Part shown: piece after piece, positions 4,166 to 35,913 of the stretch
Numbering within the stretch: the stretch's first letter is position 1
Layout of the letters: every line of letters begins with the position of its first letter
Assembly (NCBI RefSeq): GCF_045810705.1
Contig: NZ_JBJMVI010000008.1
Location: 39,142-103,141 of the forward strand
Direction: 5' to 3'
Length of the DNA: 64,000 nt
DNA from: Sphingomonas sp.
Lineage (GTDB): Bacteria; Pseudomonadota; Alphaproteobacteria; Sphingomonadales; Sphingomonadaceae
Position numbers and translations under genes: made by a program
Notes under the pieces: model-generated
What the model was told of the DNA's origin: nothing
Seen by the model: only the letters and a program-made list of their open reading frames with translations
The model's database searches: none

Positions 4166-5737
4166 TTAACGCGAAGCCTGGTTGAAGCCAAAGTATCGCC
4201 GTTGTTCATCCCATGGGAGCGGGATGTCGGCCGCCCTGAGGAGGCGCCGGCCCGTGATCGTTGCCGGCTGGCGACCTTCGATGATCGCAACAATGATATC
4301 CGGGGCTAGCCAGCTCACTCGCAGAAGCTGCCAGAGGTGCCGCTTACTGTAGCGCGAAACGATAGGATCGGGATCACTCGTGAGTGCACTTTGCTGCGCC
4401 AGCACGGCAAGCGTGATCAGCTTAACGAGCACCGGGTCGGCGTCCTCGGGCGCCGCGTCGCTGGGACGCAGAACCAGCTTAAGCTCGTTGCCTCGCCGAG
4501 CGAGATCGGCTGGAATGAGGATCTGGTTTTCGACGTCGTCACCGATGTTCACGACGATCTTTGACGATTTGAGCTGAACCCTGACATTGTTCTCAAGCAA
4601 CATCCTGCGCTGCTCCGGAACGCTGCACTGGTCCAAACCTATGGGCTCTTCGAAGGGGGAGCCCAGCTCGGCAGCGCGGCGGGTCAAGGCTGTCTCGACG
4701 CAGCGCAAAACAGCGCGGTCGATATCACCTGCCGGTATCCGCCAAGCGGGCTTCCGATCCTCAGCTGGCTTCAGTCGAGTGACATAGTAGCGATGCTGAC
4801 GAGTTCCCTTCGTCGTGAAGACCGGCGTCATCGGCCGACCATCTTCGTTCGTGATCAGGCCTGTGAGTAGGCTCGGCGTGCGGGTTCGTTTCCCATGCAG
4901 GCGTTCGCGCCGATTGGTCGCCAACAGCAGTTGGACCTGGTCCCAAACGCCGTCGTCGATGATGGCATCATGCTCGCCATCGAACAGTTCGTCGCGATGG
5001 CTCACTTTGCCGACGAAGAGCGGGTTCTGGAGCAGTTGGGCGAGAGACCCTCGGGTAAAGAAGACACCCCCGACGGATCGCCCATTCGCAAATGACCGAA
5101 CCTTCGTTCGAATGCCGACAGTGGCAAGCTCATCGGCGAGAGCACCGACCGAACCGAGTTCGAGGTACCTGCGAAAGATCAGCCGAACCGTCTCTGCCTC
5201 CGGCTCCTCGATCAGGAGCTTCCGGCTCTCCAGCCGATAGCCAATAGGAATCGGACCACCCATCCACATGCCTTTGCGCTTCGACGCCGCAACCTTGTCG
5301 CGGATCCGCTCGCTGGTGACCTCGCGCTCGAACTGCGCGAACGACAACAGCACATTCAGCGTCAGCCGACCCATGCTGGTTGTGGTGTTGAACGACTGTG
5401 TAACGCTGACAAACGAGGCGCCGGCTTTGTCTAGCACTTCAACTATACGAGCGAAGTCGGCGAGACTTCGGGTCAAGCGGTCGATCTTGTAGACGACGAT
5501 GACGTCCACCCTTCCGGCGGCTACGTCGGCAAGCAATTGCTGGAGCGCCGGCCTGGCCATGTTCCCGCCAGACCAGCCCCCATCGTCATAATGCTCGTTG
5601 ACCCGCTCCCAGCCTTCATGAGCCTGGCTGAGGATGTAGGCAGCACAAGCTTCACGCTGGGCATCGAGACTGTTGAATGCCTGCTCCAATCCCTCTTCCG
5701 TCGACTTCCGGGTGTAGATGGCGCAGCGCCGCTTCAT
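4166..5737 (-). CDS. Large serine recombinase (resolvase + recombinase domains)
   Basis: MKRRCAIYTRKS (catalytic Ser), YDDGGWSG, VVYKIDRLTRS, SFAQFERE; ATG at 5737 overlaps the DUF2924 stop (ATGA), so the ORF-track start at 5800 is probably too long. Confidence 0.95.
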   Translation of the reverse strand: MKRRCAIYTRKSTEEGLEQAFNSLDAQREACAAYILSQAHEGWERVNEHYDDGGWSGGNMARPALQQLLADVAAGRVDVIVVYKIDRLTRSLADFARIVEVLDKAGASFVSVTQSFNTTTSMGRLTLNVLLSFAQFEREVTSERIRDKVAASKRKGMWMGGPIPIGYRLESRKLLIEEPEAETVRLIFRRYLELGSVGALADELATVGIRTKVRSFANGRSVGGVFFTRGSLAQLLQNPLFVGKVSHRDELFDGEHDAIIDDGVWDQVQLLLATNRRERLHGKRTRTPSLLTGLITNEDGRPMTPVFTTKGTRQHRYYVTRLKPAEDRKPAWRIPAGDIDRAVLRCVETALTRRAAELGSPFEEPIGLDQCSVPEQRRMLLENNVRVQLKSSKIVVNIGDDVENQILIPADLARRGNELKLVLRPSDAAPEDADPVLVKLITLAVLAQQSALTSDPDPIVSRYSKRHLWQLLRVSWLAPDIIVAIIEGRQPATITGRRLLRAADIPLPWDEQRRYFGFNQASR

Positions 5738-6186
5738 TGCTCGGCCACTCGGCTGACCGATTTGCGCTTCTTTAGGCCGAAGAAGGTCGGTCCTGACCAA
5801 TGGGTGCCAGTGATGGCCGTCGCGACCTGCGTCAATGAGCTGAAGCGCCTCGCGTCATACTCGTAGCCATCATCGAGCACGAGCACATGGTGCACCCTGC
5901 CCTGCCATTGCCGGACGAGCCTCGTTCCGGACTTAAGCGATGGTCGCTTCGAGTTGATCAGCTCTTCGCCTCGCCGGAGCCGATCGGCGGCCCGCTCCAG
6001 CTCGCGTTTGATGTGGCTCGGCACATCGCCATGCACACGCGACTGAAGCTTCCAGGCAATGCCTCGTCGGAGCAGGTCCGGCCCGATATCGGGGGCCGGC
6101 TTGCGCCAGCACTCGCGCCATTTGGCGCGGAGCTGCGCCGGAGACATTCCGGGCAGCTCCGCCAGTTGCTGTTCGAGAGCACTCAT
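5734..6186 (-). CDS. DUF2924 family protein
   Basis: LRAKWRECW...LLRRGIAWKLQ...GTRLVRQWQGRVHHV...SLTQVATAITGTHWSGPTFFGL; usual position upstream of this recombinase type. Confidence 0.9.
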   Translation of the reverse strand: MSALEQQLAELPGMSPAQLRAKWRECWRKPAPDIGPDLLRRGIAWKLQSRVHGDVPSHIKRELERAADRLRRGEELINSKRPSLKSGTRLVRQWQGRVHHVLVLDDGYEYDARRFSSLTQVATAITGTHWSGPTFFGLKKRKSVSRVAEQ

Positions 6187-6416
6187 TCGGCCCTGGCCGC
6201 AGCTGGCGCCGCCTCGATCCGATAGGCTGTTTTGCCATCCGGCCGCTCCTCTTTGAGCAGGTTGCTAGTCTTCCGCACGCCCGTCAGGAAGGCGCGGCAG
6301 CTGTGCTCCTTCCAGCCGGTAGACTTCATGATCTCGACGAGGGTCGCGCCATTGCCACGGGAGAGCATCTTCTTGACGGTCGCGCTCTTGGAGAGTTTCT
6401 TTGTCTGCTTGGCCAT
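6183..6416 (-). CDS. DUF3489 family protein (small winged-helix-like)
   Basis: KSATVKKMLSRGNGATLVEIMKSTGWKEHSCRAFLTG...YRI; overlaps the DUF2924 start. Confidence 0.85.
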   Translation of the reverse strand: MAKQTKKLSKSATVKKMLSRGNGATLVEIMKSTGWKEHSCRAFLTGVRKTSNLLKEERPDGKTAYRIEAAPAAARAE

Positions 6417-6604: not shown

Positions 6605-7984
6605 TTAGGACGACAGATCAGTAAAGCCCGGATTGAAGCCCCGCAGCTCCGTACTTGCCATCACCACTTCGCGCGAATTCATATCTCGCAACGTCAGGTC
6701 GAGGACGTCGAGCCCCGCGACACCATTGAGGCGGCGCAGGACTTCCGCGATGGCAAGGCCCGCCGCGACAGTCCCGACGAAAGGCGCGCCCACAGTTCGG
6801 GACGCCAACGTGACAAGGCCGCATTCATCGAAACCAGCTTCGCCGAGCCGTTCGTAGGCCGGAGCGTGTCGGGTTGAGGTAGCCGCAGCCTCCCCTTCGT
6901 CGCGCCAAATATCCCGCGCCGGACGGGATCCTGGGAAGGAATGCAGGCGCATGGCCAGATATTCGGTCGGGCCAGCGCCGAGACCGGCCTCGACGACGAG
7001 ATCGAAGCCCGCGCCTTCGAGCGCCGCCCTCGCCGCGGCATTATCGACGCCGCACAGCGCAACCCGCGGATCGTCGGGCTGAAGAACAATGTCGCCAGCG
7101 AAGCGGCGTTCAATCATCCGCGTCCTGAAGCCCCTGAGCTCCGCCCAAGCAGCCATTGCGCGGGTTTTGCGTTGGCCGATGAGCGCGTCATTGGTCAGCG
7201 GCGACGTACTGTCGTTCGAGGCCGCGAGGCTGTCGAAATCCTGGAGCGTCAATTCGACTTCCTCGGGTCGCGCGTAGGGAAGTAAACCTAGGGCCCAGAG
7301 ATAGGCCTGCCCGAGATGACCAAGGCCAATCAGCCAGAGGTGAGACGGCGCGACAAAGCCCCTGGGCCCCGGAGCCGAAACGTCCCAGTCCCGTACTTCT
7401 GGGCGCCACAGGTTCATGCCGACGCGGCGGCGCGCAGCCATGGGATTGCCGCGAAAGTTCTGGAAGATTTCGCTGACGCCGAGGGCTCCGGCCACCATCG
7501 CCGCAAGGACATCGCGGGGTTCGTCATCAAATGTTTTGTCCTCGTCGGCCGGAAAAACGCCAGCGCGCCAGCCGCCGTATGCCACCTTCAGTGCGAGCTC
7601 TGATAGGCCCTCCGGAGCCTCCCCCAGAATCAGCGCGGGCACTTCGCCCGACAAGGCCTCTGAGATGGATCCGCCGAGCGTCAACACCGCGCTGCCCACG
7701 GTCGCTCCGAGGCCCGGCAGCGACAAGAGCAACGGGACACCGAGATTGCCGACGACGCTGACACCGCCGAGCAACGCGCGCCGGGCGCAGTTAACGATCG
7801 TCAGCAGAGCCGCCTGGCCGGCAGGGGACGCGGCCTCAACTTCATCCACACTGACCGAAAGCCGGTACCTGCCGAACAGCGCATAAGCTTCATCAAGTGA
7901 GTGCACTTCACCTGTGTCGAGCGCCATTTTGACAACGCGGTGCAACGTATCCGCAGAAATCACTGAAGGCCGATTCATCGCCAC
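6605..7984 (-). CDS. Ubiquitin-activating E1-like (ThiF/MoeB fold) protein, BilD-like
   Basis: C-terminal adenylation domain LIGLGHLGQ...QDFD...SN...KT...CGVDN...EAGLG, a degenerate N-terminal ThiF-like half, and candidate catalytic Cys in FDECG. Confidence 0.88.
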   Translation of the reverse strand: MAMNRPSVISADTLHRVVKMALDTGEVHSLDEAYALFGRYRLSVSVDEVEAASPAGQAALLTIVNCARRALLGGVSVVGNLGVPLLLSLPGLGATVGSAVLTLGGSISEALSGEVPALILGEAPEGLSELALKVAYGGWRAGVFPADEDKTFDDEPRDVLAAMVAGALGVSEIFQNFRGNPMAARRRVGMNLWRPEVRDWDVSAPGPRGFVAPSHLWLIGLGHLGQAYLWALGLLPYARPEEVELTLQDFDSLAASNDSTSPLTNDALIGQRKTRAMAAWAELRGFRTRMIERRFAGDIVLQPDDPRVALCGVDNAAARAALEGAGFDLVVEAGLGAGPTEYLAMRLHSFPGSRPARDIWRDEGEAAATSTRHAPAYERLGEAGFDECGLVTLASRTVGAPFVGTVAAGLAIAEVLRRLNGVAGLDVLDLTLRDMNSREVVMASTELRGFNPGFTDLSS

Positions 7985-8463
7985 GTTCCCGTCCTCACAA
8001 TCGAGCGAGCCTGCCAGCCGCTAAGGTCCACCCATCGATGGGAGCCAAGATATTGATAGACGCCAAGATGGTGGCGCCAGATCGGTCGCTCCGCGAGCCG
8101 CGGCACGATCAGCGCCAAGTGTCCGGGCTTTGCGATCATCGGATTGGTGCGATCGGAAGAGCTTTGCCGAGCGCGGCCGTTATTGCCGTGAAGATGGGCA
8201 TCGGCCACGACCTTGAGGCCGGTGGTTCGGCAATGCGCCCAAAGCGTCTCGAATGAATCCGCTTCGAGGATGCAGATGCCCGATGAATAGGCGTTTGCGT
8301 CGAGGTCATCGTAGAAGATGATGCTGCTGACCTCGCGATCGGTGCCGTCGATCGCACCAAGGAGGAACGCGCCGCTCTCGTGCCGGCCTTCGCTCCGCTC
8401 GTGAAGCTCGTCCAGAAGATCGAACCAGCGGGCGCGTCCGATGTGCAGCCGGGGCGCGCTCAC
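7975..8463 (-). CDS. JAB/JAMM metallo-deubiquitinase, BilC-like
   Basis: HESGAFLLG (catalytic Glu region) and AHLHGNNGRARQSSSD (HxH...SxxD JAMM motif). Confidence 0.88.
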   Translation of the reverse strand: MSAPRLHIGRARWFDLLDELHERSEGRHESGAFLLGAIDGTDREVSSIIFYDDLDANAYSSGICILEADSFETLWAHCRTTGLKVVADAHLHGNNGRARQSSSDRTNPMIAKPGHLALIVPRLAERPIWRHHLGVYQYLGSHRWVDLSGWQARSIVRTGTWR

Positions 8464-8951
8464 GACCGCTTCCCGTGATAAGAACTCGAGTTGAGCAGTT
8501 CGTGGACGGCTTCAAGGTAAAGGACGATGCCTTTCGCCGGGTCCCAGACCTGCGCAGGATGATCGGTCAGCCATTGCGGGTGGCCTTCGAAGCTCTGACG
8601 ATCGCACGGAAGGTACAGGCACAGCCCGCTTTTCCATTCGATCCGGAAGACGGCCATGAAGCGGTCGCTCCCATGGGGCCAAAGATTGTGGGCAAGGGGC
8701 GCGTTGGCCGCCGTATCCCAGAGGCAGGCGGTCACAGCCTGGCTCGGATAGCCCGAGCATTCGAACCGCAACGCATAGGCCCTCGGGCTATCGCCGCGCT
8801 CGGCGGCGGACACTTCGATCAATACATGCGGCCAATTGACCGACAATAGCTTCCAGCGGCCGCGATGCTCGCCGAGCACGAACTCGGGGCCTTCGAGGTC
8901 CTCGCGGAGCGCCCGCCGATCCGGGCGCTCCAAATCCTCAACTTCGGCCAT
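8460..8951 (-). CDS. Prokaryotic E2-like ubiquitin-conjugating protein, BilB-like
   Basis: YALRFECSGYP...LWD...WP...LYLPCDR (candidate active Cys116)...HPQW...WDP; lies between the Ubl and JAB genes. Confidence 0.8.
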   Translation of the reverse strand: MAEVEDLERPDRRALREDLEGPEFVLGEHRGRWKLLSVNWPHVLIEVSAAERGDSPRAYALRFECSGYPSQAVTACLWDTAANAPLAHNLWPHGSDRFMAVFRIEWKSGLCLYLPCDRQSFEGHPQWLTDHPAQVWDPAKGIVLYLEAVHELLNSSSYHGKRS

Positions 8952-8953
8952 GA

Positions 8954-9442
8954 TCAGCCCTCGACCCGCTTCAGGGGCACGAGGCTGAGCTCGATCCTGC
9001 AGTCGACCGACTTCAGGCTGCCGATCATCGTATCCGGGCTGGGGCGCTCCTTCGTCCCCGAAATCTGGAGCACGTGCTCGGTCGCGTCGGCGGCGCTCAT
9101 CGCAATTTTATCGACGAACCAGGCTTTCACCTCAGCAATGGTCGCCACCGGCGAAAACGGATGCTGCTTGCCGTCGCCGGCAAAATCGACAGTGACATGG
9201 ATCTTCTTGCAGCGATGCAGGCACAGGCGCTGCTTGTTGCCGACGCCCTGGCTTTGAAGTGGATGCTTGTCGTCGAGCGGATCCTCGCGGCCCTCGGCAA
9301 AGACCGAGGTATCGGACAAGTTGGCAAAGCCGAGCTCGACGGCCTTGGCACGGACATCCTTGGTGCCGGCCTTCTCGTCGAACTCGGCAAGCTCGACGCG
9401 CGGGTCACCTTCAAACTGGAGGAAGAGGGTAACTTTCGTCAT
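8954..9442 (-). CDS. Tandem ubiquitin-like protein (two beta-grasp domains, C-terminal Gly), BilA/ISG15-like
   Basis: 162 aa from ATG 9442 (MTKVTLFLQF...) with a second repeat starting KKIHVTVDF; ends VPLKRVEG-stop. Confidence 0.85.
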   Translation of the reverse strand: MTKVTLFLQFEGDPRVELAEFDEKAGTKDVRAKAVELGFANLSDTSVFAEGREDPLDDKHPLQSQGVGNKQRLCLHRCKKIHVTVDFAGDGKQHPFSPVATIAEVKAWFVDKIAMSAADATEHVLQISGTKERPSPDTMIGSLKSVDCRIELSLVPLKRVEG

Positions 9443-9493: not shown

Positions 9494-9519
9494 CAACCCG
9501 GCGAATCCCAAAACCGGAA
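9494..9519 (-). promoter_or_regulatory. Putative ECF-type promoter upstream of the Ubl operon: TTCCGGTTTTGGGA-TTCGCC-GGGTTG
   Basis: Same motif and spacing as 14344-14369; lies in the 101-bp gap between the helicase and Ubl genes. Confidence 0.6.
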
Positions 9520-9543
9520 ATGGCTTGCGCAAAAAAGGCAGCC

Positions 9544-12500
9544 TTAGCCGCCGAGCGCGATCCCGTGGGCGGGACAGGCGAAATAGAAAGCGCAATTCGG
9601 GCAGTTGCGATCGCTGGGCTTGGGCGGGAAGAGGCCCGCACCGATGCTCGCGAGCTCCGCCTCGATCGCGGCCCGCGCCTTGGCGGGGACGTCAGCCTTT
9701 ATGAGGTCCGGCTTCGCTTGCCCGTCGACCAGGGACACGTGCTCGAAGCTGATCGACAATCCAGGATGATCCAGCCCGACCATGGCCAGGAGGGCTCCAT
9801 AGCGCGCCTTCGCACTTTCCTTGTCCTTCGTAAGGCGCGCCGTCTTCAAGCGCTGGATGACGAGGCCGCCGTCCCGTTCAGCGATATGATCGGCTCTGGC
9901 CGTGATCGTGGTACCGCCGACCTCCATCTTTCGGTCGACAGGATAAACCTTGCCGGACGTCAGCTCTATCGCCCGCTCCACCATCTGCTCGGCCGACGCT
10001 CGATAAACCGTCGCCAGCGGACCGTCGGTAAGGCCGAGGCTCTCCCAATGTCCGTCGAACTCCTTTCGCCAGCCCGCCTGGCGAGCTTCGGCGTCGGGGA
10101 TGGTTCGCGCCCAGGACAGTGTTTTTCGAAGGGTGGATTGAAGCCCCAGATAGGGCGACTTGGGCCCGAACCCGCCGATCCCAAGGGCGAACTCATAATA
10201 ATATTGCCGCGGACAATGCTGGTAGGATTCGACGGCCCTGATCGAGATCTCCGCCGGCAAGGGATGGAGCGGCGCCAGCGGAAGATATTCGGGGGGTCTC
10301 GGCCCTTCCTCGACCCAATTCGCGGCGGCATTGAGGGGTCGATCGAGGTGCCCGGCAATTGGCTCGAGCAGGCGCGACGGGTTGGCCGTCGACCAGCCAC
10401 CGTAGCGAAGCGGCCGCGACAGATAGAGACTGTCCTTGGCTCGCGACAGAGCGACGAAGAACAGGCCCTCCTCCTCAGCCTCGCGCCCCATCAAGGGATC
10501 ATTGGGCACGAGCCCGTCCGGCGGCGGACACGGGTTGTGGCGGTTCTGCGCGGGAAAGTGGCGAGTCGTCAGGGTCGAGAGATGGACCGACGGAAATTCG
10601 AGGCCCTTGCTCGCGTGGACCGTCATCAGCCGGACGGCATCGATCCCCGCGGCAGCGGCAGGCATGCGTCTGAACTCCTTTTCCTCGTCGAGAAGCTCAA
10701 GGCGCCGGACATGGGCGAGGAACGCACTCTTGGGGTCCTTTTTGGGCGGCGCCCGAAAATCGAACGCGACCTGCAACAATTGGTAGATGGCGAGACGTGC
10801 CTGCTGGGCCGAGACGCTGTCCTCAAAGAGCAGGCCAAGCCGCGCCCGTCCCCTGATGAACAGGCTCTCGAGGATGAGACCATGGGGCGAAGTCATGAAG
10901 GCCGATCCGGCGAGGTCGTTCGCAAGCCTGCCAAGGCCCGCACGGCCCGCATCGGACAGGTCCGGCACGTCATCGAGCCGCCGAAGCGCCTTGATCATCG
11001 AGACCTTCTCGTTGCGCCGCCAAGTGCAGAGCGCTGCAATATCGGCGAGGGAGACGTAATAAGGCTCTTCCTGCGCGATCCGAAGGATGCCCAGGCCTTC
11101 CCACTCGCTCGCGACGGAGAGCAAGGAGAGATAGTCTCGCACTTCGGCGCGCTCGAAGAAGTCGCCGAAATAGAGGCTGGGGATGCCCGAGCGTTCGAGA
11201 TGCGCGCCAAGCTTGGCAAGGATCGTATGCGAGCGCGCCAGCACCACGTGATTGCTGAACTTGTCACCGACCTTGACGTGGGCGCGGATGGTTTCGGCAA
11301 TGCCTTCGGCTTCCGCTTCGAACGTCGCAGCTACGGAATAATGGACCGACCCCCGCTCTTCGCCTCGATGGGCTTCGAGATGGGCCATGGCCGGGAGGAC
11401 GCCCTTCCCCATTTCAGCGCCGAAGCTCGAGAAGGTCCGGACGATGCGCCCGCCTGACCGGTAGTTGACGCCAAGGTCGGTGAAGGTCGCGCCCGTGAAG
11501 TCCTGTCCGAACTCGGTCATGTTCAGCGGCGATGCACCGCGGAACCGGTAGATCGATTGGCGGGCATCGCCCACCACCCACGGGCCCTGCCCTGGCGTAA
11601 CCAGCTCCTTCAGGAACAAGGCGCTGGCGCGGTTCATGTCCTGGTATTCATCGACGAGGACATGCTTCGTCTTTGCGCGAACCGCCGCGGCGACCCCGGC
11701 ATGCTCAGCCAGCAGCTCATGCGCCCGCATGATGAGGTCGCCGAAATCGGCGTCGCCGCGTTCCCTCAGTGCGGCCTGGTAGACCGCATAGATACGGGCG
11801 ACCTCGGCTGCCTTGGCCGCTTCTACGTCGCGGCTGGGATGTTTCGTCATTGCCGCAGCGAAGCGAGCATAATCGTCCGGCGTTGCGAGCTGATCCTTGG
11901 CGCGCGAGATTGCATTCAACACGGCCTTCAACGGCTGCAGCGGTTCGCGAAGGTCGAGATAATATTCAAGGCTGAGGGACGGGAGCAGCTCTTCAAGCAG
12001 GAACAAGGAATCCGACCGGTCGAGCGGCTGAAGGTTCGGCTTGATGCCAATGACCTCGCCGTATTTACGAAGCAGCTCCAGGCCGAAGGCGTGGAACGTG
12101 CCGCTCCAGATGGTCGGCGCCAGGTCCCCAATCTCGCTCCGCAACCGGCGGCTGAGATCGACCGACGATTCATTCGAGTAGGTAAGGGCCACGATCGACG
12201 CCGGATTCTCGTCATTATCGACAAGCCATTTGATCCGCGCGACGAGGGTCCTGGTCTTGCCCGTGCCGGGGCCGGCTGTCACCTGGTGCGGCCCGAAGCC
12301 TGCTTCAGCGGCCTGGAGCTGCGTCTTGTCGGGCGGCGGCGGTGATGTGGATTGAGGTTTCGCATGGTCCTCGTCCGGCAGGAGCACAGCATCGGCCAGT
12401 TGCTGCAGGATCAGGTCGAGCGGAAGCCCGAGCCTCGCTGCGAGCTCGGACGGAGATTCCGTCGCTGCCGCCCACCAGGCCTTTAGCTTCGGCCTTGGCA

Positions 12501-12921
12501 GTAAGAACTCGCGCGCGAACAGATTGGCCTGCGCTTCAGCCCGTTCCTTCGGGCTGTAGGCGTCGATTTCGCCGACCACCGACAGTTCGGGTTCGGCCGG
12601 TGTCGCAAAATCAACATCGACCGAGCTGCAGCCTCCATGCGTGTCATGGAGCCGATGATGGCCGAATTCGTGAGCGATCGTGAAGCGCCGCGTTTCGAGC
12701 GCCAGGCCCATTGAATAAAGGATTCGGTTATCGTCGCGATCGTAGAGGCCGTCAGCTCCCTCCAGCAGGATATCGTCGGCCGGAAGCGGCATCAGCCGAG
12801 TGCCGGTCGCCTCCCGCGCGCGCTCGACCAGGTCGTCAGCGGCAGGAAGCTCGCCAGTCTCGGCAAACAGTTCCTCGTGCCAGGCGCGCGCTAGGCCCCT
12901 AATCTCGCTCCACATGCTCAT
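9544..12921 (-). CDS. ImmA/IrrE metallopeptidase - UvrD/PcrA SF1 helicase - AddB/RecB-like Fe-S PD-(D/E)xK domain fusion (1125 aa)
   Basis: RRFTIAHEFGH and EAQANLFAREFLLP (Peptidase M78); AGPGTGKT, GTFHAFG, VDEYQD, VGDARQSIYRFRGA, NYRS, MTVHASKGLEF, FFVALSRA (helicase motifs); HCPRQYY...CPNC...ACP (4 Cys); ATG 12921 overlaps the upstream stop. Confidence 0.9.
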   Translation of the reverse strand: MSMWSEIRGLARAWHEELFAETGELPAADDLVERAREATGTRLMPLPADDILLEGADGLYDRDDNRILYSMGLALETRRFTIAHEFGHHRLHDTHGGCSSVDVDFATPAEPELSVVGEIDAYSPKERAEAQANLFAREFLLPRPKLKAWWAAATESPSELAARLGLPLDLILQQLADAVLLPDEDHAKPQSTSPPPPDKTQLQAAEAGFGPHQVTAGPGTGKTRTLVARIKWLVDNDENPASIVALTYSNESSVDLSRRLRSEIGDLAPTIWSGTFHAFGLELLRKYGEVIGIKPNLQPLDRSDSLFLLEELLPSLSLEYYLDLREPLQPLKAVLNAISRAKDQLATPDDYARFAAAMTKHPSRDVEAAKAAEVARIYAVYQAALRERGDADFGDLIMRAHELLAEHAGVAAAVRAKTKHVLVDEYQDMNRASALFLKELVTPGQGPWVVGDARQSIYRFRGASPLNMTEFGQDFTGATFTDLGVNYRSGGRIVRTFSSFGAEMGKGVLPAMAHLEAHRGEERGSVHYSVAATFEAEAEGIAETIRAHVKVGDKFSNHVVLARSHTILAKLGAHLERSGIPSLYFGDFFERAEVRDYLSLLSVASEWEGLGILRIAQEEPYYVSLADIAALCTWRRNEKVSMIKALRRLDDVPDLSDAGRAGLGRLANDLAGSAFMTSPHGLILESLFIRGRARLGLLFEDSVSAQQARLAIYQLLQVAFDFRAPPKKDPKSAFLAHVRRLELLDEEKEFRRMPAAAAGIDAVRLMTVHASKGLEFPSVHLSTLTTRHFPAQNRHNPCPPPDGLVPNDPLMGREAEEEGLFFVALSRAKDSLYLSRPLRYGGWSTANPSRLLEPIAGHLDRPLNAAANWVEEGPRPPEYLPLAPLHPLPAEISIRAVESYQHCPRQYYYEFALGIGGFGPKSPYLGLQSTLRKTLSWARTIPDAEARQAGWRKEFDGHWESLGLTDGPLATVYRASAEQMVERAIELTSGKVYPVDRKMEVGGTTITARADHIAERDGGLVIQRLKTARLTKDKESAKARYGALLAMVGLDHPGLSISFEHVSLVDGQAKPDLIKADVPAKARAAIEAELASIGAGLFPPKPSDRNCPNCAFYFACPAHGIALGG

Positions 12922-13538
12922 TGCTCGGCATGCGAGCCCTTGGCCCAGAGAGCCTCCCGCCACTCGGCCTTCTGCGTTTCATCGATGGCGGCCGAAGCGA
13001 GGGCCTCCTCGAAGGTCTCCGTTTGGCGAACGGCCTTCTTGCCCGATTTCATCCGTGCGTTGGCAACGGTCGCCAATGGCGGTCCGCGTAGATGATGACG
13101 CACTACTGCGAGCGTGATGCCAAGGACATCACGCAATCGATCGAGGCACAATTGCGGAATGCTCTCAAAATCGATTTTCCTCCGGAACAGCTTCATCACG
13201 AAGGGCTCATCGAGGCCAATTCGAACGGCTACGTCGGCGTCGTTGAGGCCGGCGGATCGAGCAATCTGCGTCAGCGTCCCTTGCTTCGAATCTTCCTGAT
13301 GCAGGAGATTGAGCGCATGACTTACGGCCTCCGCAGCAAAGCGCTCGGCGTCGACGGACTGAGTGATCGGAAGCTCGATCTGCTCGGCCCACGTTGCAAA
13401 ATACTCGGCAAGCTCGCTCGCATGCTCCGGAAAAAGCTCGCACCAGCGCGAGAGCGCGGCATAGCTCGGCTCGTCCTCTTCGATCGCGATATGATCGAAA
13501 AGCTCGTCCAGGTGGATGTGGCGGGGTTTAACGGTCAT
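12918..13538 (-). CDS. Protein with helical N-terminal domain and XRE/Cro-like HTH (candidate anti-sigma or repressor)
   Basis: TLTQIARSAGLNDADVAVRIGLDEPFVMKLFRR resembles an XRE HTH; ATGA-coupled to both neighbours. Confidence 0.6.
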   Translation of the reverse strand: MTVKPRHIHLDELFDHIAIEEDEPSYAALSRWCELFPEHASELAEYFATWAEQIELPITQSVDAERFAAEAVSHALNLLHQEDSKQGTLTQIARSAGLNDADVAVRIGLDEPFVMKLFRRKIDFESIPQLCLDRLRDVLGITLAVVRHHLRGPPLATVANARMKSGKKAVRQTETFEEALASAAIDETQKAEWREALWAKGSHAEQ

Positions 13539-14428
13539 GACCTGTCTCCAAGGGCTTCTTGCATCTGCTTGCGGGCAGTGCCGATCCAGGTCCGGATTTG
13601 ACGGTCTGAGACATTGAAAAAGTCACACAAACACGGCTGTCCCTTCGGTCCGGGAAGATACGGCCAACCCCATAATTCGTGAAGGATGAACGCGACGCGG
13701 TGACGCCGGTCCTTCACGGCTGCCAGAATTTCACGACGTTTAGGGTGCTTCTCGCCGGCCTCAATCAGCTCCGCGAGAGGGTCGGGGCGATCGTCAGGGA
13801 CAAGCGAGGCAGCATCGATGGCATCGCCATCGTCGTTGATGATGGTCCGGAGTGGAGCGTGGAACTTGTTTTGACCCTTGCGTCGGCGAACTGCCCTTAA
13901 TGTTTCGCGCTCGACGATGCTCTTGAAGCTGATCTCGAGAATCTCAGTCTGCCGCGTTACCTCGCTTGAGGTGATCCGTCTGTCGATCTCATCCTTAACC
14001 TCGTCGCAGATGATCCCGAGGTCAGTCTCGCTGAATCCCTGCGCGGTGTCTTCGACGATCTTCGCGGCCCGCTCCATCAGAGTGAAGAGCACTCGGCCGA
14101 ACAGGTTGCGATCGATGACGCGCAAGAATTTCAAAAGGTAAACGCGGGTCTCATCCTTGATACCACCATGCCTCGGGGCGTGGACTGCCCACTCTTCGGG
14201 CGGCAGCGCCAGCATGGCGCCGATCTCTGCCTCGACATCGGTCCGGCGCGTGTATGGCTCCCCTGTTACGGTCGAACAGGTAAGCGGGCGCACGGTCCGC
14301 TTCGTACCGCACGAAGGTCCCTGTTTGTCTGTCACGGGATGCTCAACCCCCGCCTTCCCGAAACCGGAAGAATCTTTTTTTTCGATTGGCTCGTATTCGG
14401 CGAATGCTCTCGAAGGCACCTGAGCCAT
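13535..14428 (-). CDS. ECF/sigma70-family-like sigma factor (true start possibly GTG 14335)
   Basis: Region 2-like FKSIVERETLRAVRRRK; region 4-like RHRVAFILHELWG...FFNVSDRQIRTWIGTARKQMQEAL. Confidence 0.7.
   Translation of the reverse strand: MAQVPSRAFAEYEPIEKKDSSGFGKAGVEHPVTDKQGPSCGTKRTVRPLTCSTVTGEPYTRRTDVEAEIGAMLALPPEEWAVHAPRHGGIKDETRVYLLKFLRVIDRNLFGRVLFTLMERAAKIVEDTAQGFSETDLGIICDEVKDEIDRRITSSEVTRQTEILEISFKSIVERETLRAVRRRKGQNKFHAPLRTIINDDGDAIDAASLVPDDRPDPLAELIEAGEKHPKRREILAAVKDRRHRVAFILHELWGWPYLPGPKGQPCLCDFFNVSDRQIRTWIGTARKQMQEALGDRS
14344..14369 (-). promoter_or_regulatory. Putative autoregulatory ECF-type promoter: TTCCGGTTTCGGGA-AGGCGG-GGGTTG
   Basis: 20 of 26 positions fit the pattern shared with 9494-9519 (TTCCGGTTTYGGGA-N6-GGGTTG); ends 8 nt upstream of in-frame GTG 14335. 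Confidence 0.55.
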
Positions 14429-14697
14429 CGCGAACTCGGCTACGCGCCCGCACGACAGAACGATCGCAGCCGCTCGGCAGCCGCATACGCCACTCCCCCC
14501 AACTAAACCGAGCAGCTCTAAGTGACTCTGCATCAGCCGCGGAGTCAACGGCTGTGGCCCGCGACGAACTCGCTCGTTTTACATAACATCCGTTGCCGCG
14601 GCCTCTTAGCCCGGGGTGGCCGACAACTGCAGTTTCTGCTAGTTTCCGGACTGCTCGGTGAGTTGTGACGGCCCTCGTGTCGTCAGGGGGGTGTTCC

Positions 14698-16017
14698 ATG
14701 GCCGGGTTCGCACGCCAATTCCCGTTCGTCATCGTGGTTGTGTTCGCGATCCTCTTCGCCGCACCGGCGCTGAGCGCGCCCAGCGTCGTACCTTCTCCGC
14801 GCGTCACCGCCGCGGTGGTTGTCCGTGCTCAGCCGACCGCGAGTTCCGAAGCCCTCGCACGGATGCGGCCGGGCGAGTTTCTGCCGCTTCAGCAGGAAAT
14901 CTCCGGCTGGTTTCAGGTCCTGCTGCCCGACGGACGGACCGGCTACGTCAGCAAGGCATGGGCCGATATCGTTCCAGAAGCCGTCACCCCGGCACCACCG
15001 GTCTGGAAAATCCACTTTGTGGACGTCGGCACGGGACTGGCGACCTTTGTCGAAGGGCCCGACTTCGCACTCATCTACGATGGCGGCAGCAATGACGATT
15101 ATGCGCTCGGGTCGCGCAACCGGCTCCTCGCCTATCTTCACCGGGTACGGCCGGATCTCCAGGTCATTGATCACATTATTCTCAGTCACCCGCACCGCGA
15201 TCATGTCGAGCTGCTGCCCGACCTGTTCGACGGCTATCAGGTCCGCAACGTGTGGGATTCGGGGCGCATCTACGACATCTGCGGTTACCGCTCCTTTCTG
15301 CAGAAGATCAGCACCGAGCCCGGCGTCGTCTATCACGACGCTGCAAGCGAGGCGGGAGTCCACGCCGTGAGTCTGCCGGCGAAAGCCTGCTATGGTCACA
15401 CTGCGCCGCTCAGCGTGCACATTGCGGATGGCACGCCGATTACGCGGGGTCTGAAGGTGCCTCTCGGCGCCGGCGCTTCAATGACTTTTCTGACCGCCGA
15501 TGCCGGAAGCTATCCCGATCCGAACGAGAACAGCGTCGTCGTCAGGCTCGATCTCGGCGCCGACCGGTTCCTGTTCATGGGCGATGCTGAAGCCTCGCCG
15601 GATCGAGAGCCGCCATCAATTCCTCCACGCCCGAACTTTGCCGAGGGTCAGCTGCTGACCTGCTGCGCCGCAGATATCCAGGCGGATTTCATGGTTGTCG
15701 GGCATCACGGCAGCATGAGTTCATCGCGCGCGACGTTTCTGAATGCGGTCGGGGCAAAAATCTTTGTGATCTCGTCGGGACCGAAGGATTACGGGCGAGC
15801 CGGGCATCCCGTCACGCTTCCAGACCCTGAGGTCGTGCACGAGGTGGAGAGCCGCGGCACCCTTTGGCGGACCGATTTTGACGATCCAGATTGTCGGACC
15901 GACGCCGCCAAGATCGGTACCGACGCCGACAATAATGTTGGAGGCTGCGATAACATTCTCGTTCGGGTTCCCGCCAGCGGACCGCCGCTCGTCAATTACG
16001 AGCGAATCCACGACTGA
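14698..16017 (+). CDS. Secreted SH3b + ComEC/Rec2-like metallo-beta-lactamase-fold hydrolase
   Basis: Hydrophobic signal peptide; SH3b GWFQVLLPDGRTGYVSKAW; MBL motifs SHPHRDH, FMGDA, GHHGS, ISSG. Confidence 0.85.
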   Translation: MAGFARQFPFVIVVVFAILFAAPALSAPSVVPSPRVTAAVVVRAQPTASSEALARMRPGEFLPLQQEISGWFQVLLPDGRTGYVSKAWADIVPEAVTPAPPVWKIHFVDVGTGLATFVEGPDFALIYDGGSNDDYALGSRNRLLAYLHRVRPDLQVIDHIILSHPHRDHVELLPDLFDGYQVRNVWDSGRIYDICGYRSFLQKISTEPGVVYHDAASEAGVHAVSLPAKACYGHTAPLSVHIADGTPITRGLKVPLGAGASMTFLTADAGSYPDPNENSVVVRLDLGADRFLFMGDAEASPDREPPSIPPRPNFAEGQLLTCCAADIQADFMVVGHHGSMSSSRATFLNAVGAKIFVISSGPKDYGRAGHPVTLPDPEVVHEVESRGTLWRTDFDDPDCRTDAAKIGTDADNNVGGCDNILVRVPASGPPLVNYERIHD

Positions 16018-17132
16018 TGGAGAAAGCCCCAAATTCCAAAGCTAGCCGCAAGCTCGTCATTTGCTGCGACGGGACTTCAAACCAGTTCGCACGCGATCGG
16101 ACCAACGTTCTCAAGCTTGCCTTTGCGGCCCTCAACGACCCGGCGCGCCAGCTGCTTTATTATCATCCTGGCGTGGGGACGATGGCGCCTCCCGGGGTCT
16201 TCACCGGGATCGGCCAAAAGGTCATTCAGACTGTCGGTCTGGCCTTTGGCTATGGTCTCAAGGCCGACATCAGGGATGCATACACGTTTCTGATCAATCA
16301 CTATCGACCGGATGATGAAGTTTATATTTTCGGGTTCAGTCGCGGTGCCTACACGGCACGCGCGTTAGTCGCCCTCATCGCCGAATACGGGCTTCTGGCT
16401 CCCGGCAGCGACGCGCTTGTGCCCTACGCCATTAGACTTCTGTGGAGCTTTCACGGCGCGTCGGCCGCTAAGAAGGCAGCGGCGTTCAAACTGGCGGGAG
16501 AGTTCAAAAACTCGCTTTCAACCGGCAAGTGCAAGGTCCGGTTCCTGGGCGTCTGGGACACGGTCAGTTCGGTAGGGTGGATTGCCAATCCTCTATCCCT
16601 GCCAAACACGAGCGTGCTGCCGGGGGTCGACTCGATACGGCATGCAGTATCGATCGACGAGCGCCGGGCATTCTTCCGTACCAATCTCGTGAAGGCGGAC
16701 AGTGCTCGCGACATCCAAGAAGTTTGGTTTGTTGGCGACCATTGCGACATAGGAGGGGGCCATCCCGAGCTAGTGAGTGGACTCTCAAAGATTCCACTCA
16801 ATTGGATGATCTCAGAAGCGAAAAAGGCCGGGATGGCTTTTGACGATGCACGCATCGGTACAATCCTTGGGCAAACGTCGGGCGACTACGCAAAGCCTGA
16901 TCCAAATGCACCGATGCATGATGCAATGTGGCCCATCTGGTGGCTCGCCGAGTTCACCCCGAAGAAGCACTGGGACCATGTGACCGGCAGGACCCAATTT
17001 CGAGCCAACCTGTTCCGACGACGGCACTTCTCAAGCGCGCCAGTGATAGATGATAGCGCGTGGGAGCGCGCAAATGATTATGCGAAGCGCCTCCCAAAAG
17101 ACGCAGTGAGAAGGAGTTCAATCTACCATTAG
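16017..17132 (+). CDS. DUF2235 alpha/beta hydrolase (Tle1-like phospholipase family)
   Basis: LVICCDGT, YYHPGVGT, IFGFSRGAYTAR (GxSxG), FLGVWDTV, HAVSIDERR, VWFVGDHCDIGGG. Confidence 0.9.
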   Translation: MEKAPNSKASRKLVICCDGTSNQFARDRTNVLKLAFAALNDPARQLLYYHPGVGTMAPPGVFTGIGQKVIQTVGLAFGYGLKADIRDAYTFLINHYRPDDEVYIFGFSRGAYTARALVALIAEYGLLAPGSDALVPYAIRLLWSFHGASAAKKAAAFKLAGEFKNSLSTGKCKVRFLGVWDTVSSVGWIANPLSLPNTSVLPGVDSIRHAVSIDERRAFFRTNLVKADSARDIQEVWFVGDHCDIGGGHPELVSGLSKIPLNWMISEAKKAGMAFDDARIGTILGQTSGDYAKPDPNAPMHDAMWPIWWLAEFTPKKHWDHVTGRTQFRANLFRRRHFSSAPVIDDSAWERANDYAKRLPKDAVRRSSIYH

Positions 17133-27617: not shown

Positions 27618-27879
27618 CCTCATTGACGGCGCGAGTCCGAGAAATGGCCTTTTTGTGCCGCCCAGCCAGCCTAATGACCGCTTTCGACCCAATGCGGACA
27701 CGCAGGCACGGCGAAGGAAGTGTTCCACTGCGTTTAGCGCGGCACTTCGGCATGTCGACCTTTTCTGCGCGCAACAGCAAGATGCATCCCATTCGCAGCT
27801 CGACCTAGCTGCAATGTACTAATGGACCGAAGAGCGAGTGTGGGCGTGCGCCACCGGGGGGGTCTCGAAAGGCACCCAG

Positions 27880-35729: not shown

Positions 35730-35913
35730 GAGCCCTCCCATTTAACGCGCGCGAAACCCCCTAGCGCGCCTCAGACACGTGAGAATTCGGTGAGACATTT
35801 TCAAGAACGAGCCATGAACATCTGAGCGTCGGAATCGGGCGATTCATCGCGTCGGACAAGCAGGAGCACAAATCGCTGTTCCTGCGGACAAGGGACTGTT
35901 TCAATCGAAAGGG

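What the first reader, a model, noticed from the sequence alone, without database searches (positions are those of the whole stretch)
9544..12921. Three-domain protease-helicase fusion whose Fe-S nuclease domain appears catalytically dead
Seen: intact M78 peptidase motifs (HEFGH, EAQANLFA) and all SF1A helicase motifs. The C-terminal AddB/RecB-like domain keeps four Cys (HCPRQ...CPNC...C) and motif II (ARADHI), but motif III reads VIQRLKT where D/E-x-K is expected, with Arg at the acidic position. Inference: the C-terminus may be a DNA-binding or sensing module rather than a nuclease, making the peptidase the output domain, the reverse of usual helicase-nuclease defence effectors.
Basis: partly seen in the sequence, partly recalled or inferred. 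Interest (0 to 1): 0.65.

Follow-up and report, generated by a model that had tools for sequence, protein, structure and literature searches.

The report
DNA-sensing protease switch for ubiquitin-like defence
This 1125-residue protein joins a latent zinc protease, a working DNA helicase and a nuclease-shaped domain that has lost its catalytic residues, and it always sits with a sigma factor and a small repressor-like protein next to bacterial ubiquitin-like anti-phage operons, so it is most likely a DNA-sensing switch that turns those operons on.

Summary
ORF 9544-12921 (-) encodes M78 peptidase + SF1A UvrD helicase + a Cas4/AddB-like Fe-S domain. Its motif III reads R-L-K. Arg1024 is invariant in 115 homologs and present in 122 of 158 domains from the wider family. 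A canonical relative has D-Y-K at exactly these columns. Peptidase and helicase motifs are invariant.

The gene is third in a translationally coupled cassette:
- gene 1: ECF-type sigma-like protein
- gene 2: XRE-HTH protein
- gene 3: the fusion protein

In all 22 informative loci (Alpha-, Beta- and Gammaproteobacteria, Chloroflexi, many plasmids) the cassette adjoins a ubiquitin-like conjugation operon. Fourteen are BilABCD, as in this window at 6605-9442, and eight are Bub.

A bipartite promoter-like element, TT(T/A)CCGG-N16-CG(A/G)TTG, lies about 72-90 nt upstream of the Ubl gene in 12 of 22 loci, and often upstream of gene 1 as well.

Best explanation: a CapP/IrrE-type latent protease whose ssDNA-sensing GAF domain is replaced by a helicase plus pseudo-nuclease DNA sensor. 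On DNA engagement it would cleave gene 2, free the sigma factor and induce Bil. This is inferred, not shown.

Verdict: a new variant of protease-based immune-operon regulators, which I did not find described in the papers searched.

The parts
9544..12921 (-). Gene 3: M78 peptidase - UvrD-type SF1A helicase - Fe-S pseudo-nuclease fusion, 1125 aa
   Evidence: ORF. Pfam domains. 115 full-length homologs. AF2 model with pLDDT 91.5 and pTM 0.89.
12496..12921 (-). M78 (ImmA/IrrE/CapP-type) peptidase domain, residues 1-142. HEFGH at 12658-12672, invariant Cys98 at 12628-12630, Asp102 at 12616-12618, third ligand region EAQANLFA at 12514-12537.
   Evidence: Pfam PF06114, 49.1 bits against a cutoff of 22. 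Profile against the PDB: IrrE 3dte and CapP 7t5t, both about 9e-5. Invariant columns. Coordinates.
12382..12495 (-). Three-helix linker, residues 143-180, at the position of the HTH domain of CapP/IrrE
   Evidence: Helices 143-152, 157-164 and 168-180 in the model. CapP domain plan from 10.64898/2026.05.16.725639. The correspondence is inferred.
10342..12327 (-). SF1A helicase core, residues 199-860, with all motifs (Walker A 12253-12276, DEYQD 11638-11652, motif III 11533-11571)
   Evidence: Pfam UvrD-helicase 4.9e-58 and UvrD_C. NCBIfam PcrA/Rep/UvrD. Foldseek UvrD/PcrA, E 1e-35 to 1e-30. Motif residues invariant.
9547..10254 (-). Cas4/AddB-like PD-(D/E)XK fold with four Cys, residues 890-1125. 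Motif II ARADHI at 9883-9900, motif III VIQRLKT at 9841-9861 (R-L-K at 9844-9852), Cys903, CPNC at 9592-9603, Cys1116 at 9574-9576.
   Evidence: Pfam PDDEXK_1 3.1e-12. Alpha-beta-beta-beta-alpha-beta core in the model. Alignment to canonical L008. Family census.
12918..13538 (-). Gene 2: 206-aa XRE-type HTH protein (N-terminal helical domain, HTH at about 89-150, disordered linker 151-175, C-terminal helices). Proposed substrate of the peptidase. ATGA overlaps with both neighbouring genes.
   Evidence: 278 relatives, some carrying HTH_26 or HTH_31. PDB profile hits to XRE proteins. AF2 model. Foldseek to CapH NTD, DdrO and 434 repressor. Overlaps.
13535..14428 (-). Gene 1: ECF-type sigma-factor-like protein. 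Start uncertain: the ORF runs to 14548, and homology begins near residue 85 of that ORF.
   Evidence: Profile against the PDB: ECF SigE 4e-4 over sigma2 + sigma4. hhalign against RpoE E 1e-4, prob. 56%. Sigma70_r4 hit in the L004 ortholog. Orthologs named sigma-24, sigma-70 family or sigma factor-like in public records.
9494..9520 (-). Bipartite promoter-like element TTTCCGG-N13-CGGGTTG, starting 78 nt upstream of the bilA ATG. Proposed gene-1 sigma-dependent promoter.
   Evidence: Unique in the window, 0.05 expected. The same element is at -72 to -90 from the Ubl gene in 12 of 22 loci, and copies lie upstream of gene 1.
9537..9552 (-). Terminator-like hairpin over the stop codon of gene 3, followed by T6
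   Evidence: Consensus scan. Function not tested.
8954..9442 (-). bilA (ubiquitin-like protein)
   Evidence: PADLOC BilA 2.2e-44.
8460..8951 (-). bilB (E2-like)
   Evidence: PADLOC BilB 1.3e-61 and Pfam DUF7665.
7975..8463 (-). bilC (JAB deubiquitinase)
   Evidence: PADLOC BilC 5.5e-59.
6605..7984 (-). bilD (E1-like)
   Evidence: PADLOC BilD 5.3e-165.

Best explanation
Gene 3 is the sensor-protease of a three-gene regulatory cassette (ECF-type sigma-like protein, XRE-HTH protein, M78-helicase-pseudonuclease). The cassette controls transcription of the adjacent ubiquitin-like anti-phage operon, which is bilABCD here and Bub elsewhere.

Proposed steps:
(i) The cassette is made at a low level, and the gene 2 protein keeps the system off, either by holding the sigma factor or by binding the promoter region.
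(ii) Phage infection or DNA damage produces DNA ends or single-stranded DNA. The UvrD-type motor loads on them. The Fe-S nuclease-shaped domain, which can no longer cut, grips the displaced strand or end, as the nuclease-like domains of AddB and RecC do.
(iii) The DNA-engaged, ATP-hydrolysing state releases an autoinhibitory loop of the N-terminal M78 peptidase. The candidate is a cysteine switch at Cys98/Asp102, as in CapP.
(iv) The peptidase cleaves gene 2, probably in its disordered linker at about residues 151-175.
(v) The sigma factor directs RNA polymerase to the TT(T/A)CCGG-N16-CG(A/G)TTG promoter upstream of bilA, and in many loci upstream of the cassette itself. BilABCD is then produced.

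Shown by computation: the domain make-up, the loss of nuclease residues, the intact peptidase and helicase motifs, the conserved gene order and the conserved promoter-like element.
Inferred: every functional step (i)-(v).
For: Loss of the nuclease catalytic set:
- R1024 is invariant in 115 homologs.
- It aligns with the D of D-Y-K in canonical L008.
- R-x-R or R-x-K is present in 122 of 158 domains of the wider family, and all four Cys are kept.
- E1035 is not a compensating residue.
- The C-terminal domain is the least conserved part: 0.43 mean pairwise identity, against 0.58 for the helicase and 0.55 for M78.

Active peptidase and motor:
- H84, E85, H88, E129, the Walker A residues G219/G221/K222 (T223 in at least 90%), D424, E425, Q427, D428 and motifs III-VI are invariant.

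Kinship of the peptidase domain:
- IrrE and CapP are its best solved relatives.
- CapP is an ssDNA-activated peptidase with a cysteine-switch loop that cleaves the XRE repressor CapH to induce immune operons. CapH+CapP accompanies 25 of 162 Bil operons and 168 of 544 Bub operons.

Gene 2 is an XRE-HTH protein:
- Pfam and PDB evidence.
- Fold like the CapH and DdrO N-terminal domains, with a disordered linker.

Gene 1 is sigma-like.

Gene organisation:
- Genes 1-2-3 overlap by ATGA.
- The cassette adjoins Bil in 14 loci and Bub in 8 loci, across 22 of 22 informative loci from four bacterial classes and many plasmids, including one divergent arrangement.

Promoter-like element:
- 13 strict matches fall in the two expected regions, against 0.11 expected.
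- In hold-out loci, 11 matches against 1.25 expected.
- The two copies within a locus share lineage-specific -10 parts.
Against: - No experiment supports any functional step.
- The sigma assignment rests on weak scores (E 4e-4; hhalign probability 56%).
- The XRE hits for gene 2 are individually weak (E 0.04-0.9).
- The window itself has no clear copy of the promoter element upstream of gene 1.
- The promoter motif was first seen by eye in part of the same loci.
- Seven further matches lie inside gene 1 and may only reflect codons of a conserved peptide.
- The cassette is co-directional with bilABCD, unlike nearly all described capH/capP pairs.
- D1011, E898, E1035 and K1026 are invariant in the close subfamily, and I had no coordinates, so an unusual active site cannot be excluded geometrically.
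- Cys98 is absent from three of five distant relatives.
Confidence: 0.6

Rival explanations
1. Gene 3 is a defence effector in its own right. It would be a helicase-nuclease that unwinds and degrades phage DNA using a non-canonical active site (for example D1011, E898 or E1035, and K1026). The M78 domain would be an accessory, and the link to Bil would reflect only defence-island clustering.
For: The overall architecture matches AddA/AdnB/RecB helicase-nucleases. PADLOC's best models are GajB-type UvrD helicases. UvrD-Cas4 fusions are predicted defence components (PMC5704561). D1011, E898, E1035 and K1026 are invariant in the close subfamily.
Against: - Arg at the metal-binding position is the family signature, and the Lys is Arg in most members.
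- E898 and E1035 vary in distant members.
- E1035 coexists with canonical D-x-K domains.
- There is no GajA or AddB-like partner in the cassette.
- Fixed gene order with ATGA overlaps and 22 of 22 association with Bil or Bub, across classes and on plasmids, is far beyond island clustering.
- The shared promoter element links the cassette to the Ubl gene.
Confidence: 0.1
2. Gene 3 works inside the Bil/Bub conjugation pathway rather than upstream of it. It could be a target-recruiting (E3-like) factor that brings the Ubl machinery to phage DNA or replication complexes. It could be a substrate of conjugation. Its M78 domain could process the Ubl or its conjugates.
For: It is strictly co-inherited with two different Ubl systems. 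Bil operons encode no E3 (PMC11601596). Type II Bub operons typically lack a JAB peptidase.
Against: - Most described Bil operons (135 of 162) work as four genes without it.
- BilC and BubE already provide the peptidase functions.
- The M78 domain groups with the repressor-cleaving IrrE and CapP.
- An XRE-HTH gene and a sigma-like gene travel with it, and a promoter element sits before the Ubl gene. These features fit a transcriptional role.
Confidence: 0.1
3. It is a regulator as in the best explanation, but the peptidase substrate is not gene 2. The M78 domain would remove the conserved N-terminal extension of the sigma-like protein (pro-sigma activation). Gene 2 would be a classical repressor or an adaptor.
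For: Gene 1 has a conserved stretch of about 70 residues (PLT..G..Y.R...VE..I) ahead of the sigma2-like region. Pro-sigma processing is established in Bacillus sporulation (my own knowledge).
Against: All characterised M78 relatives (ImmA, IrrE, CapP) cleave an adjacent XRE-HTH protein. Gene 2 has the HTH-linker-C-terminal domain plan of such substrates.
Confidence: 0.12

Closest known systems
CapP + CapH (Corbett lab), with IrrE/PprI + DdrO and ImmA + ImmR
   Same: The M78 zinc peptidase is encoded next to an XRE-HTH protein. The peptidase is latent and is activated by DNA (ssDNA for CapP and IrrE). Cleavage of the HTH protein induces an adjacent immune operon, including Bil and Bub. A conserved Cys and acidic loop follows HExxH. 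A three-helix unit follows the peptidase domain.
   Different: The ssDNA-binding GAF domain is replaced by a complete SF1A helicase plus an Fe-S nuclease-shaped domain of about 940 residues. A sigma-like gene is added. The cassette is co-directional and translationally coupled rather than divergent. The gene 2 protein is about 205 aa, with an extra N-terminal helical domain.
AddAB / AdnAB / RecBCD helicase-nucleases
   Same: The UvrD-type motor is followed by a RecB/Cas4-type domain with a four-Cys cluster. Foldseek aligns the model to AddA, AdnB and RecB over helicase plus nuclease. From my own knowledge: RecC carries an inactivated nuclease-like domain, and the AddB Fe-S cluster is needed for binding DNA ends.
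   Different: It is a single polypeptide with no partner subunit. The motif III acidic residue is Arg. It has an N-terminal protease. There is no repair-gene context.
UvrD-Cas4-like fusion proteins of pfam12705 (Hudaiberdiev et al. 2017, PMC5704561)
   Same: A UvrD helicase is fused to a Cas4-like domain and found in defence contexts. L008 looks like such a protein.
   Different: Those proteins keep D...D/ExK...QxxxY, lack the M78 domain and sit with type III R-M or Dcm/Vsr genes, not with Bil or Bub.
ECF sigma / anti-sigma systems controlled by regulated proteolysis (e.g. RpoE-RseA-DegS/RseP)
   Same: The sigma gene is followed directly by a small regulator gene. A protease is the signal-transducing step. 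There is an autoregulated bipartite promoter (the mechanism is general knowledge).
   Different: The components are cytoplasmic. The regulator carries an XRE HTH. The protease is fused to a DNA motor. The signal would be DNA rather than envelope stress.
Gabija GajB
   Same: It gives the best PADLOC scores for the helicase part.
   Different: There is no GajA neighbour. The match covers only the UvrD core. GajB has no peptidase or Fe-S domain.

Membership tests
ImmA/IrrE/CapP M78 peptidases | HExxH plus a downstream Glu ligand in a Peptidase_M78 fold | tested here: met
   PF06114 scores 49.1 bits against a cutoff of 22. H84, E85, H88 and E129 are invariant. IrrE and CapP are the best PDB relatives.
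ImmA/IrrE/CapP M78 peptidases | Adjacent gene for an XRE-HTH substrate protein | tested here: met
   Gene 2 overlaps the start codon. XRE HTH by Pfam in relatives, PDB profile and Foldseek. Cleavage itself was not tested.
ImmA/IrrE/CapP M78 peptidases | C-terminal GAF domain forming the ssDNA groove (CapP, IrrE) | tested here: not met
   Residues 199-1125 are UvrD helicase plus a PD-(D/E)XK fold.
ImmA/IrrE/CapP M78 peptidases | Cysteine-switch loop after HExxH (present in many CapP, not all) | tested here: inconclusive
   Cys98 and Asp102 are invariant in 115 homologs, 10 and 14 residues after H88. Cys98 is present in 2 of 5 distant relatives. The loop alignment to CapP is ambiguous.
SF1A UvrD/PcrA/Rep helicases | Motifs Q, I, Ia, II, III, IV, V and VI, and the four-subdomain fold | tested here: met
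   ATPase and unwinding activity were not tested.
RecB/AddB/Cas4 Fe-S PD-(D/E)XK nucleases | PD-(D/E)XK core fold with a four-Cys cluster (1 N-terminal + 3 C-terminal) | tested here: met
   PF12705 scores 47.4 bits against a cutoff of 22. Secondary structure core. C903, C1107, C1110 and C1116 are conserved.
RecB/AddB/Cas4 Fe-S PD-(D/E)XK nucleases | Motif III (D/E)-x-K | tested here: not met
   R-L-K here. R is present in 115 of 115 homologs and 122 of 158 family domains. It aligns to the D of D-Y-K in L008.
RecB/AddB/Cas4 Fe-S PD-(D/E)XK nucleases | Motif IV QxxxY | tested here: not met
   Y1041 and L1045 (Q in the consensus) occupy the Q and Y columns of L008.
RecB/AddB/Cas4 Fe-S PD-(D/E)XK nucleases | Nuclease activity | not testable with these tools
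   Needs purified protein.
Gabija (GajA+GajB) | GajA ATPase-nuclease gene next to GajB | tested here: not met
   The neighbours are the sigma-like gene, the XRE gene and BilABCD.
Type II Bil system (neighbouring operon) | bilA-bilB-bilC-bilD in this order | tested here: met
   PADLOC E-values from 2e-44 to 5e-165 for the four ORFs at 6605-9442.
ECF (group 4) sigma factors (gene 1) | Sigma2 and sigma4 domains | tested here: inconclusive
   PDB SigE 4e-4 over both regions. hhalign against RpoE 1e-4 with prob. 56%. Sub-threshold Sigma70_r4 hit. Public annotations as sigma factor. There is no Pfam hit for the window protein itself.

The most novel reading that the evidence does not exclude
The cassette is a fourth class of immune-operon regulator, beside CapW, CapH+CapP and CapK+CapS. 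In it an ATP-driven helicase with a pseudo-nuclease DNA clamp actively scans for DNA ends or single-stranded DNA. It converts that encounter, through a fused latent protease, into release of a dedicated sigma factor that transcribes ubiquitin-like defence operons from its own promoter type. This would be the first motor-coupled protease sensor, and the first sigma-factor-based switch described for anti-phage systems.
Probability: 0.4. Interest if true: 0.8.

Novelty: new variant of a known kind. Interest (0 to 1): 0.7.

Why it matters
Bil and Bub are the bacterial counterparts of ubiquitin/ISG15 conjugation. How they are switched on is only partly known (CapW, CapH+CapP, CapK+CapS).

If the model holds, it would show three things:
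- A helicase-nuclease scaffold can be re-used as a pure DNA sensor, with an Arg filling the former metal site.
- Protease-based de-repression can be coupled to an ATP-driven motor instead of passive ssDNA binding.
- Defence operons can carry their own sigma factor and promoter.

The system is easy to test. The cassette is compact and occurs on plasmids of culturable Sinorhizobium, Rhizobium, Agrobacterium, Pseudomonas and Acinetobacter. It predicts a cleavage event, a promoter and clear point mutants.

Tried and rejected
- **Genome-contig scan with the full-length alignment.** The patterns chosen were generic UvrD motifs, so only 7 of the 80 loci were real relatives.
- **Sequence searches of the PDB with the C-terminal domain.** Neither the family profile nor the canonical L008 domain gave a significant hit. 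I therefore could not make a residue-level alignment to a solved nuclease. L008 served as the canonical reference instead.
- **Model coordinates.** They are not available to scripts, so I could not measure distances around R1024, D1011, E898 and E1035.
- **Foldseek with the whole model.** The helicase dominates the result.
- **Pfam on the window's gene 1 and gene 2.** Nothing usable came back. Profiles built from orthologs were needed.
- **Transcript evidence.** The window comes from a soil metagenome and no isolate RNA-seq exists for it.
- **Phage collection.** No relative of the C-terminal domain was found.
- **E1035 as a relocated acidic residue of the Cfr10I kind.** I considered this and rejected it.
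- **A GajB/Gabija assignment.** Rejected because there is no GajA gene.
- **The GTG start at 12963.** Rejected.

Full report
**1. The observation**

The minus-strand ORF from ATG 12921 to the stop at 9544-9546 encodes 1125 residues. A GTG 14 codons upstream is open. Homologs all begin MSxW, and the ATG overlaps the stop of the upstream gene in an ATGA, so 12921 is the start.

Pfam finds four domains, all above their gathering scores:
- Peptidase_M78, residues 59-175
- UvrD-helicase, 199-475
- UvrD_C, 715-835
- PDDEXK_1, 892-1117

These are HEFGH, EAQANLFA, the helicase motifs, HCPRQ, ARADHI, VIQRLKT, CPNC and the last Cys.

**2. Is the odd motif III real and meaningful?**

A protein search returned more than 100 full-length three-domain homologs at 48-94% identity.

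In an alignment of 115 of them:
- R1024 and K1026 are invariant.
- D1011, E898, E1035, C903, C1110 and C1116 are also invariant.
- C1107 is kept in 114 of 115.

A distant UvrD-nuclease relative without the peptidase (L008, 25% identity) has the textbook motifs GKIDRL, IIDYKTG and QMTVY. Its D and K of D-Y-K align with R1024 and K1026, and its Q and Y align with Y1041 and L1045.

Five three-domain relatives at 33-36% identity read R-x-R at motif III. Among them:
- the motif II Asp is Asn in one and Glu in another;
- E1035 is Asp in one and Ala in another;
- E898 is not kept in any of them;
- all keep the four Cys.

A profile of the domain searched against 1.84 billion cluster representatives found 122 proteins at E<=1e-30. 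The full-length ones are nearly all 1112-1190 residues, with the domain at the C-terminus. In the best 150:
- Arg holds the acidic position in 122 of 158 domains.
- The next-but-one residue is Arg in 76 and Lys in 57.
- The canonical D...D-x-K combination appears in only 9, most of them among the tandem domains of two unrelated multi-nuclease proteins.

E1035 is not a relocated catalytic residue. It occurs in 6 of 11 canonical domains, and about a quarter of Arg-type domains have a non-acidic residue there.

The C-terminal domain is also the least conserved part of the protein. Its mean pairwise identity is 0.43, against 0.58 for the helicase and 0.55 for the peptidase.

I conclude that the domain keeps its fold and its cluster but lost nuclease chemistry early in the family's history. 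I could not check the geometry, because model coordinates are not exposed.

**3. The other two domains are under strong constraint**

H84, E85, H88 and E129 of the peptidase are invariant. So are Walker A, DEYQD and motifs III-VI of the helicase.

The AlphaFold model built on the 115-sequence alignment is confident, with pLDDT 91.5 and pTM 0.89. Its best solved matches are UvrD, PcrA and Rep, followed by AddA, AdnB and RecB.

The only low-confidence stretch, at about residues 111-120, lies in a highly conserved loop of the peptidase domain.

A profile of the N-terminal 190 residues finds IrrE (3dte) and CapP (7t5t) as best solved relatives, both at about 9e-5.

According to a 2026 preprint (10.64898/2026.05.16.725639), CapP is built as peptidase + HTH + GAF. 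Single-stranded DNA binds between the peptidase and GAF domains. This releases a cysteine-switch loop that blocks the zinc site.

The target has the following parallels and one difference:
- An invariant Cys98 and Asp102 sit just after HExxH.
- A three-helix unit sits where the CapP HTH is.
- The helicase and pseudo-nuclease sit where the GAF domain would be.

The cysteine-switch reading is an inference. Three of five distant relatives lack the Cys.

**4. Context, which changes the picture**

Immediately downstream on the same strand lies a complete BilABCD operon (PADLOC E-values 2e-44 to 5e-165). Immediately upstream, linked by two ATGA overlaps, lie a 206-residue gene and a gene of about 297 residues.

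The order gene 1 - gene 2 - gene 3 - Ubl operon recurs in every locus I could read.

Bil lies downstream in 14 loci:
- the window, and Phenylobacterium;
- a Lichenicoccus MAG, an uncultured alphaproteobacterium and a Chloroflexi MAG;
- S. meliloti and S. medicae;
- three loci from metagenome assemblies of unnamed organisms (L084, L086, L087);
- plasmids of R. phaseoli, B. japonicum, Aminobacter and Roseovarius.

Bub (multiubiquitin, E1-like, DUF6527/BubE) is adjacent in 8 loci:
- Pseudomonas sp. NFX224 and Sphingomonas cavernae;
- a metagenome contig whose gene 2 protein matches an Azospirillum palustre record (L088);
- A. johnsonii and A. seifertii;
- Mesorhizobium and an Agrobacterium Ti plasmid;
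- Robbsia, where the Bub operon is divergent from the cassette.

Two further loci are uninformative, one because of a contig end and one because of an IS66 insertion.

The C-terminal domain hits 77 PLSDB plasmids, 43 of them Acinetobacter, and no phage record.

**5. The two small genes**

Gene 2:
- It has 278 relatives of about 205 residues.
- Of 60 scanned, 14 match HTH_26 and 6 match HTH_31.
- Its profile hits XRE proteins in the PDB, weakly but consistently.
- Its model (pLDDT 75.5) shows an N-terminal helical domain, a five-helix HTH at 89-150, a disordered linker at 151-175 with near-invariant K164 and P169, and C-terminal helices.
- The HTH superposes on 434 repressor, SinR, the CapH N-terminal domain (TM 0.78) and DdrO.

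Gene 1:
- A 13-sequence profile hits the ECF sigma factor SigE across the sigma2 and sigma4 regions (4e-4).
- hhalign against E. coli RpoE gives E 1e-4 at 56% probability.
- The Pseudomonas ortholog has a sub-threshold Sigma70_r4 hit.
- Public records name orthologs sigma-24, sigma-70 family sigma factor or sigma factor-like protein.

The sigma assignment is likely but not secure.

**6. A shared cis element**

Genes 1-3 overlap one another, but a gap of 45-210 nt always precedes the Ubl gene.

In the window this gap holds two features:
- a terminator-like hairpin over the stop codon, at 9552-9537;
- the element TTTCCGG-N13-CGGGTTG at 9494-9520, starting 78 nt before bilA. It is unique in the 64 kb, with 0.05 expected by chance.

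Across loci, the heptamer TT(T/A)CCG(G/A) is enriched in this gap and upstream of gene 1:
- 15 matches against 1.4 expected in the loci where I first saw it;
- 11 matches against 1.25 expected in hold-out plasmid loci.

A strict bipartite pattern gives 13 hits in these two regions, against 0.11 expected. It lies at -72 to -90 from the Ubl start in 12 of 22 loci. The two copies within a locus share lineage-specific downstream parts. In the Chloroflexi locus, for example, TTTCCGGTTT...CAACGATTA occurs twice.

This is what an autoregulated alternative-sigma promoter looks like.

Caveats:
- The motif was found by eye.
- The window has no clear copy upstream of gene 1.
- Seven extra matches lie inside gene 1 and may only reflect codons.

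**7. Mechanism proposed**

The target is a CapP/IrrE-type latent peptidase. Its passive ssDNA-binding domain has been replaced by a DNA motor and an end- or strand-gripping pseudo-nuclease.

On meeting phage-derived or damage-derived DNA it would cleave the XRE protein. The sigma factor would then be free to transcribe the Ubl operon.

All functional steps are inferred. I give the general model 0.6.

Rivals:
- an effector nuclease with an unusual active site (0.1);
- a role inside the conjugation pathway (0.1);
- the same regulator with the sigma N-terminal extension as the peptidase substrate (0.12).

**8. Comparison with what is known**

The Corbett laboratory papers report the following:
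- CapH+CapP accompanies 25 of 162 Bil operons and 168 of 544 Bub operons.
- The pair is divergent from bilABCD in all but one case.
- CapW and CapK+CapS also regulate these operons.

The four of these papers that I term-searched do not contain the word helicase, and in the CapK+CapS paper sigma factor appears only in anti-sigma comparisons.

UvrD-Cas4 fusions have been described, but with intact motifs and in restriction-modification or Dcm/Vsr contexts (PMC5704561). Further full-text searches found no description of this cassette.

I therefore rate it a new variant of a known kind, namely protease-based de-repression of immune operons. It is not a member of the active RecB/AddB/Cas4 nucleases, because two defining motifs were tested and not met.

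Noticed in passing
window 6605-9442 (-): A complete Type II BilABCD (bacterial ISG15-like) ubiquitin-like conjugation operon lies directly downstream of the finding.
   Followed up: yes
L004 9060, L091 4538, L092 4471, L094 3487, L096 3496, L099 3499, L100 3541: The bipartite promoter-like pattern also occurs inside the 3' part of gene 1, about 210-216 nt before gene 2, in seven loci. Six of these are Bub-type or IS-disrupted; L094 is Bil-type. It is either an internal promoter for genes 2-3 or a by-product of codons for the conserved sigma4 'LPE..RR.IE' stretch.
   Followed up: partly
window 12559-12621 (-), residues 101-121 of gene 3: A loop inside the M78 domain is highly conserved (D102, P111, S114, V116 and G117 invariant or nearly so). 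It is nonetheless the only low-confidence stretch of the model. It may be an autoinhibitory or partner- or DNA-contacting loop.
   Followed up: partly
window 4166-6416 (-): A large serine recombinase (544 aa), a DUF2924 protein and a DUF3489 protein lie directly after bilD. Similar recombinases flank the cassette in L084 and L090, which suggests the whole unit rides on an integrative element.
   Followed up: partly
window 14665-17132 (+): Divergent from gene 1 are an MBL-fold, ComEC-like protein with a signal-peptide-like N-terminus and a Tle1-like phospholipase (PF09994, 8e-74). An inverted TTTCCGG at about 14643-14650 faces the MBL-fold gene.
   Followed up: partly
window 27838-29649 (+) and 34413-35741 (-): A second large serine recombinase and a ParB-N6/N4 DNA methylase fusion lie in a lower-GC stretch (0.555-0.591 between 28 and 36 kb). 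This is probably another mobile element.
   Followed up: no
L096 10320-14648 and L099 10279-14648: In the Mesorhizobium and Agrobacterium Ti-plasmid loci, the Bub operon is followed by a separate PD-(D/E)XK nuclease family protein plus UvrD-helicase gene pair (AddAB-like). An AbiEii/DUF6088 pair precedes the cassette.
   Followed up: no
L097 151-7735: In Robbsia andropogonis plasmid p1 the Bub operon is divergent from the cassette and shares a 150-nt intergenic region with it. This is the arrangement typical of capH/capP regulators.
   Followed up: partly
P0257 and P0351: Two proteins, of 1297 and 1047 residues, carry four to five tandem canonical Cas4-like nuclease domains (D...DYK each). This is an unusual architecture unrelated to the finding.
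   Followed up: no
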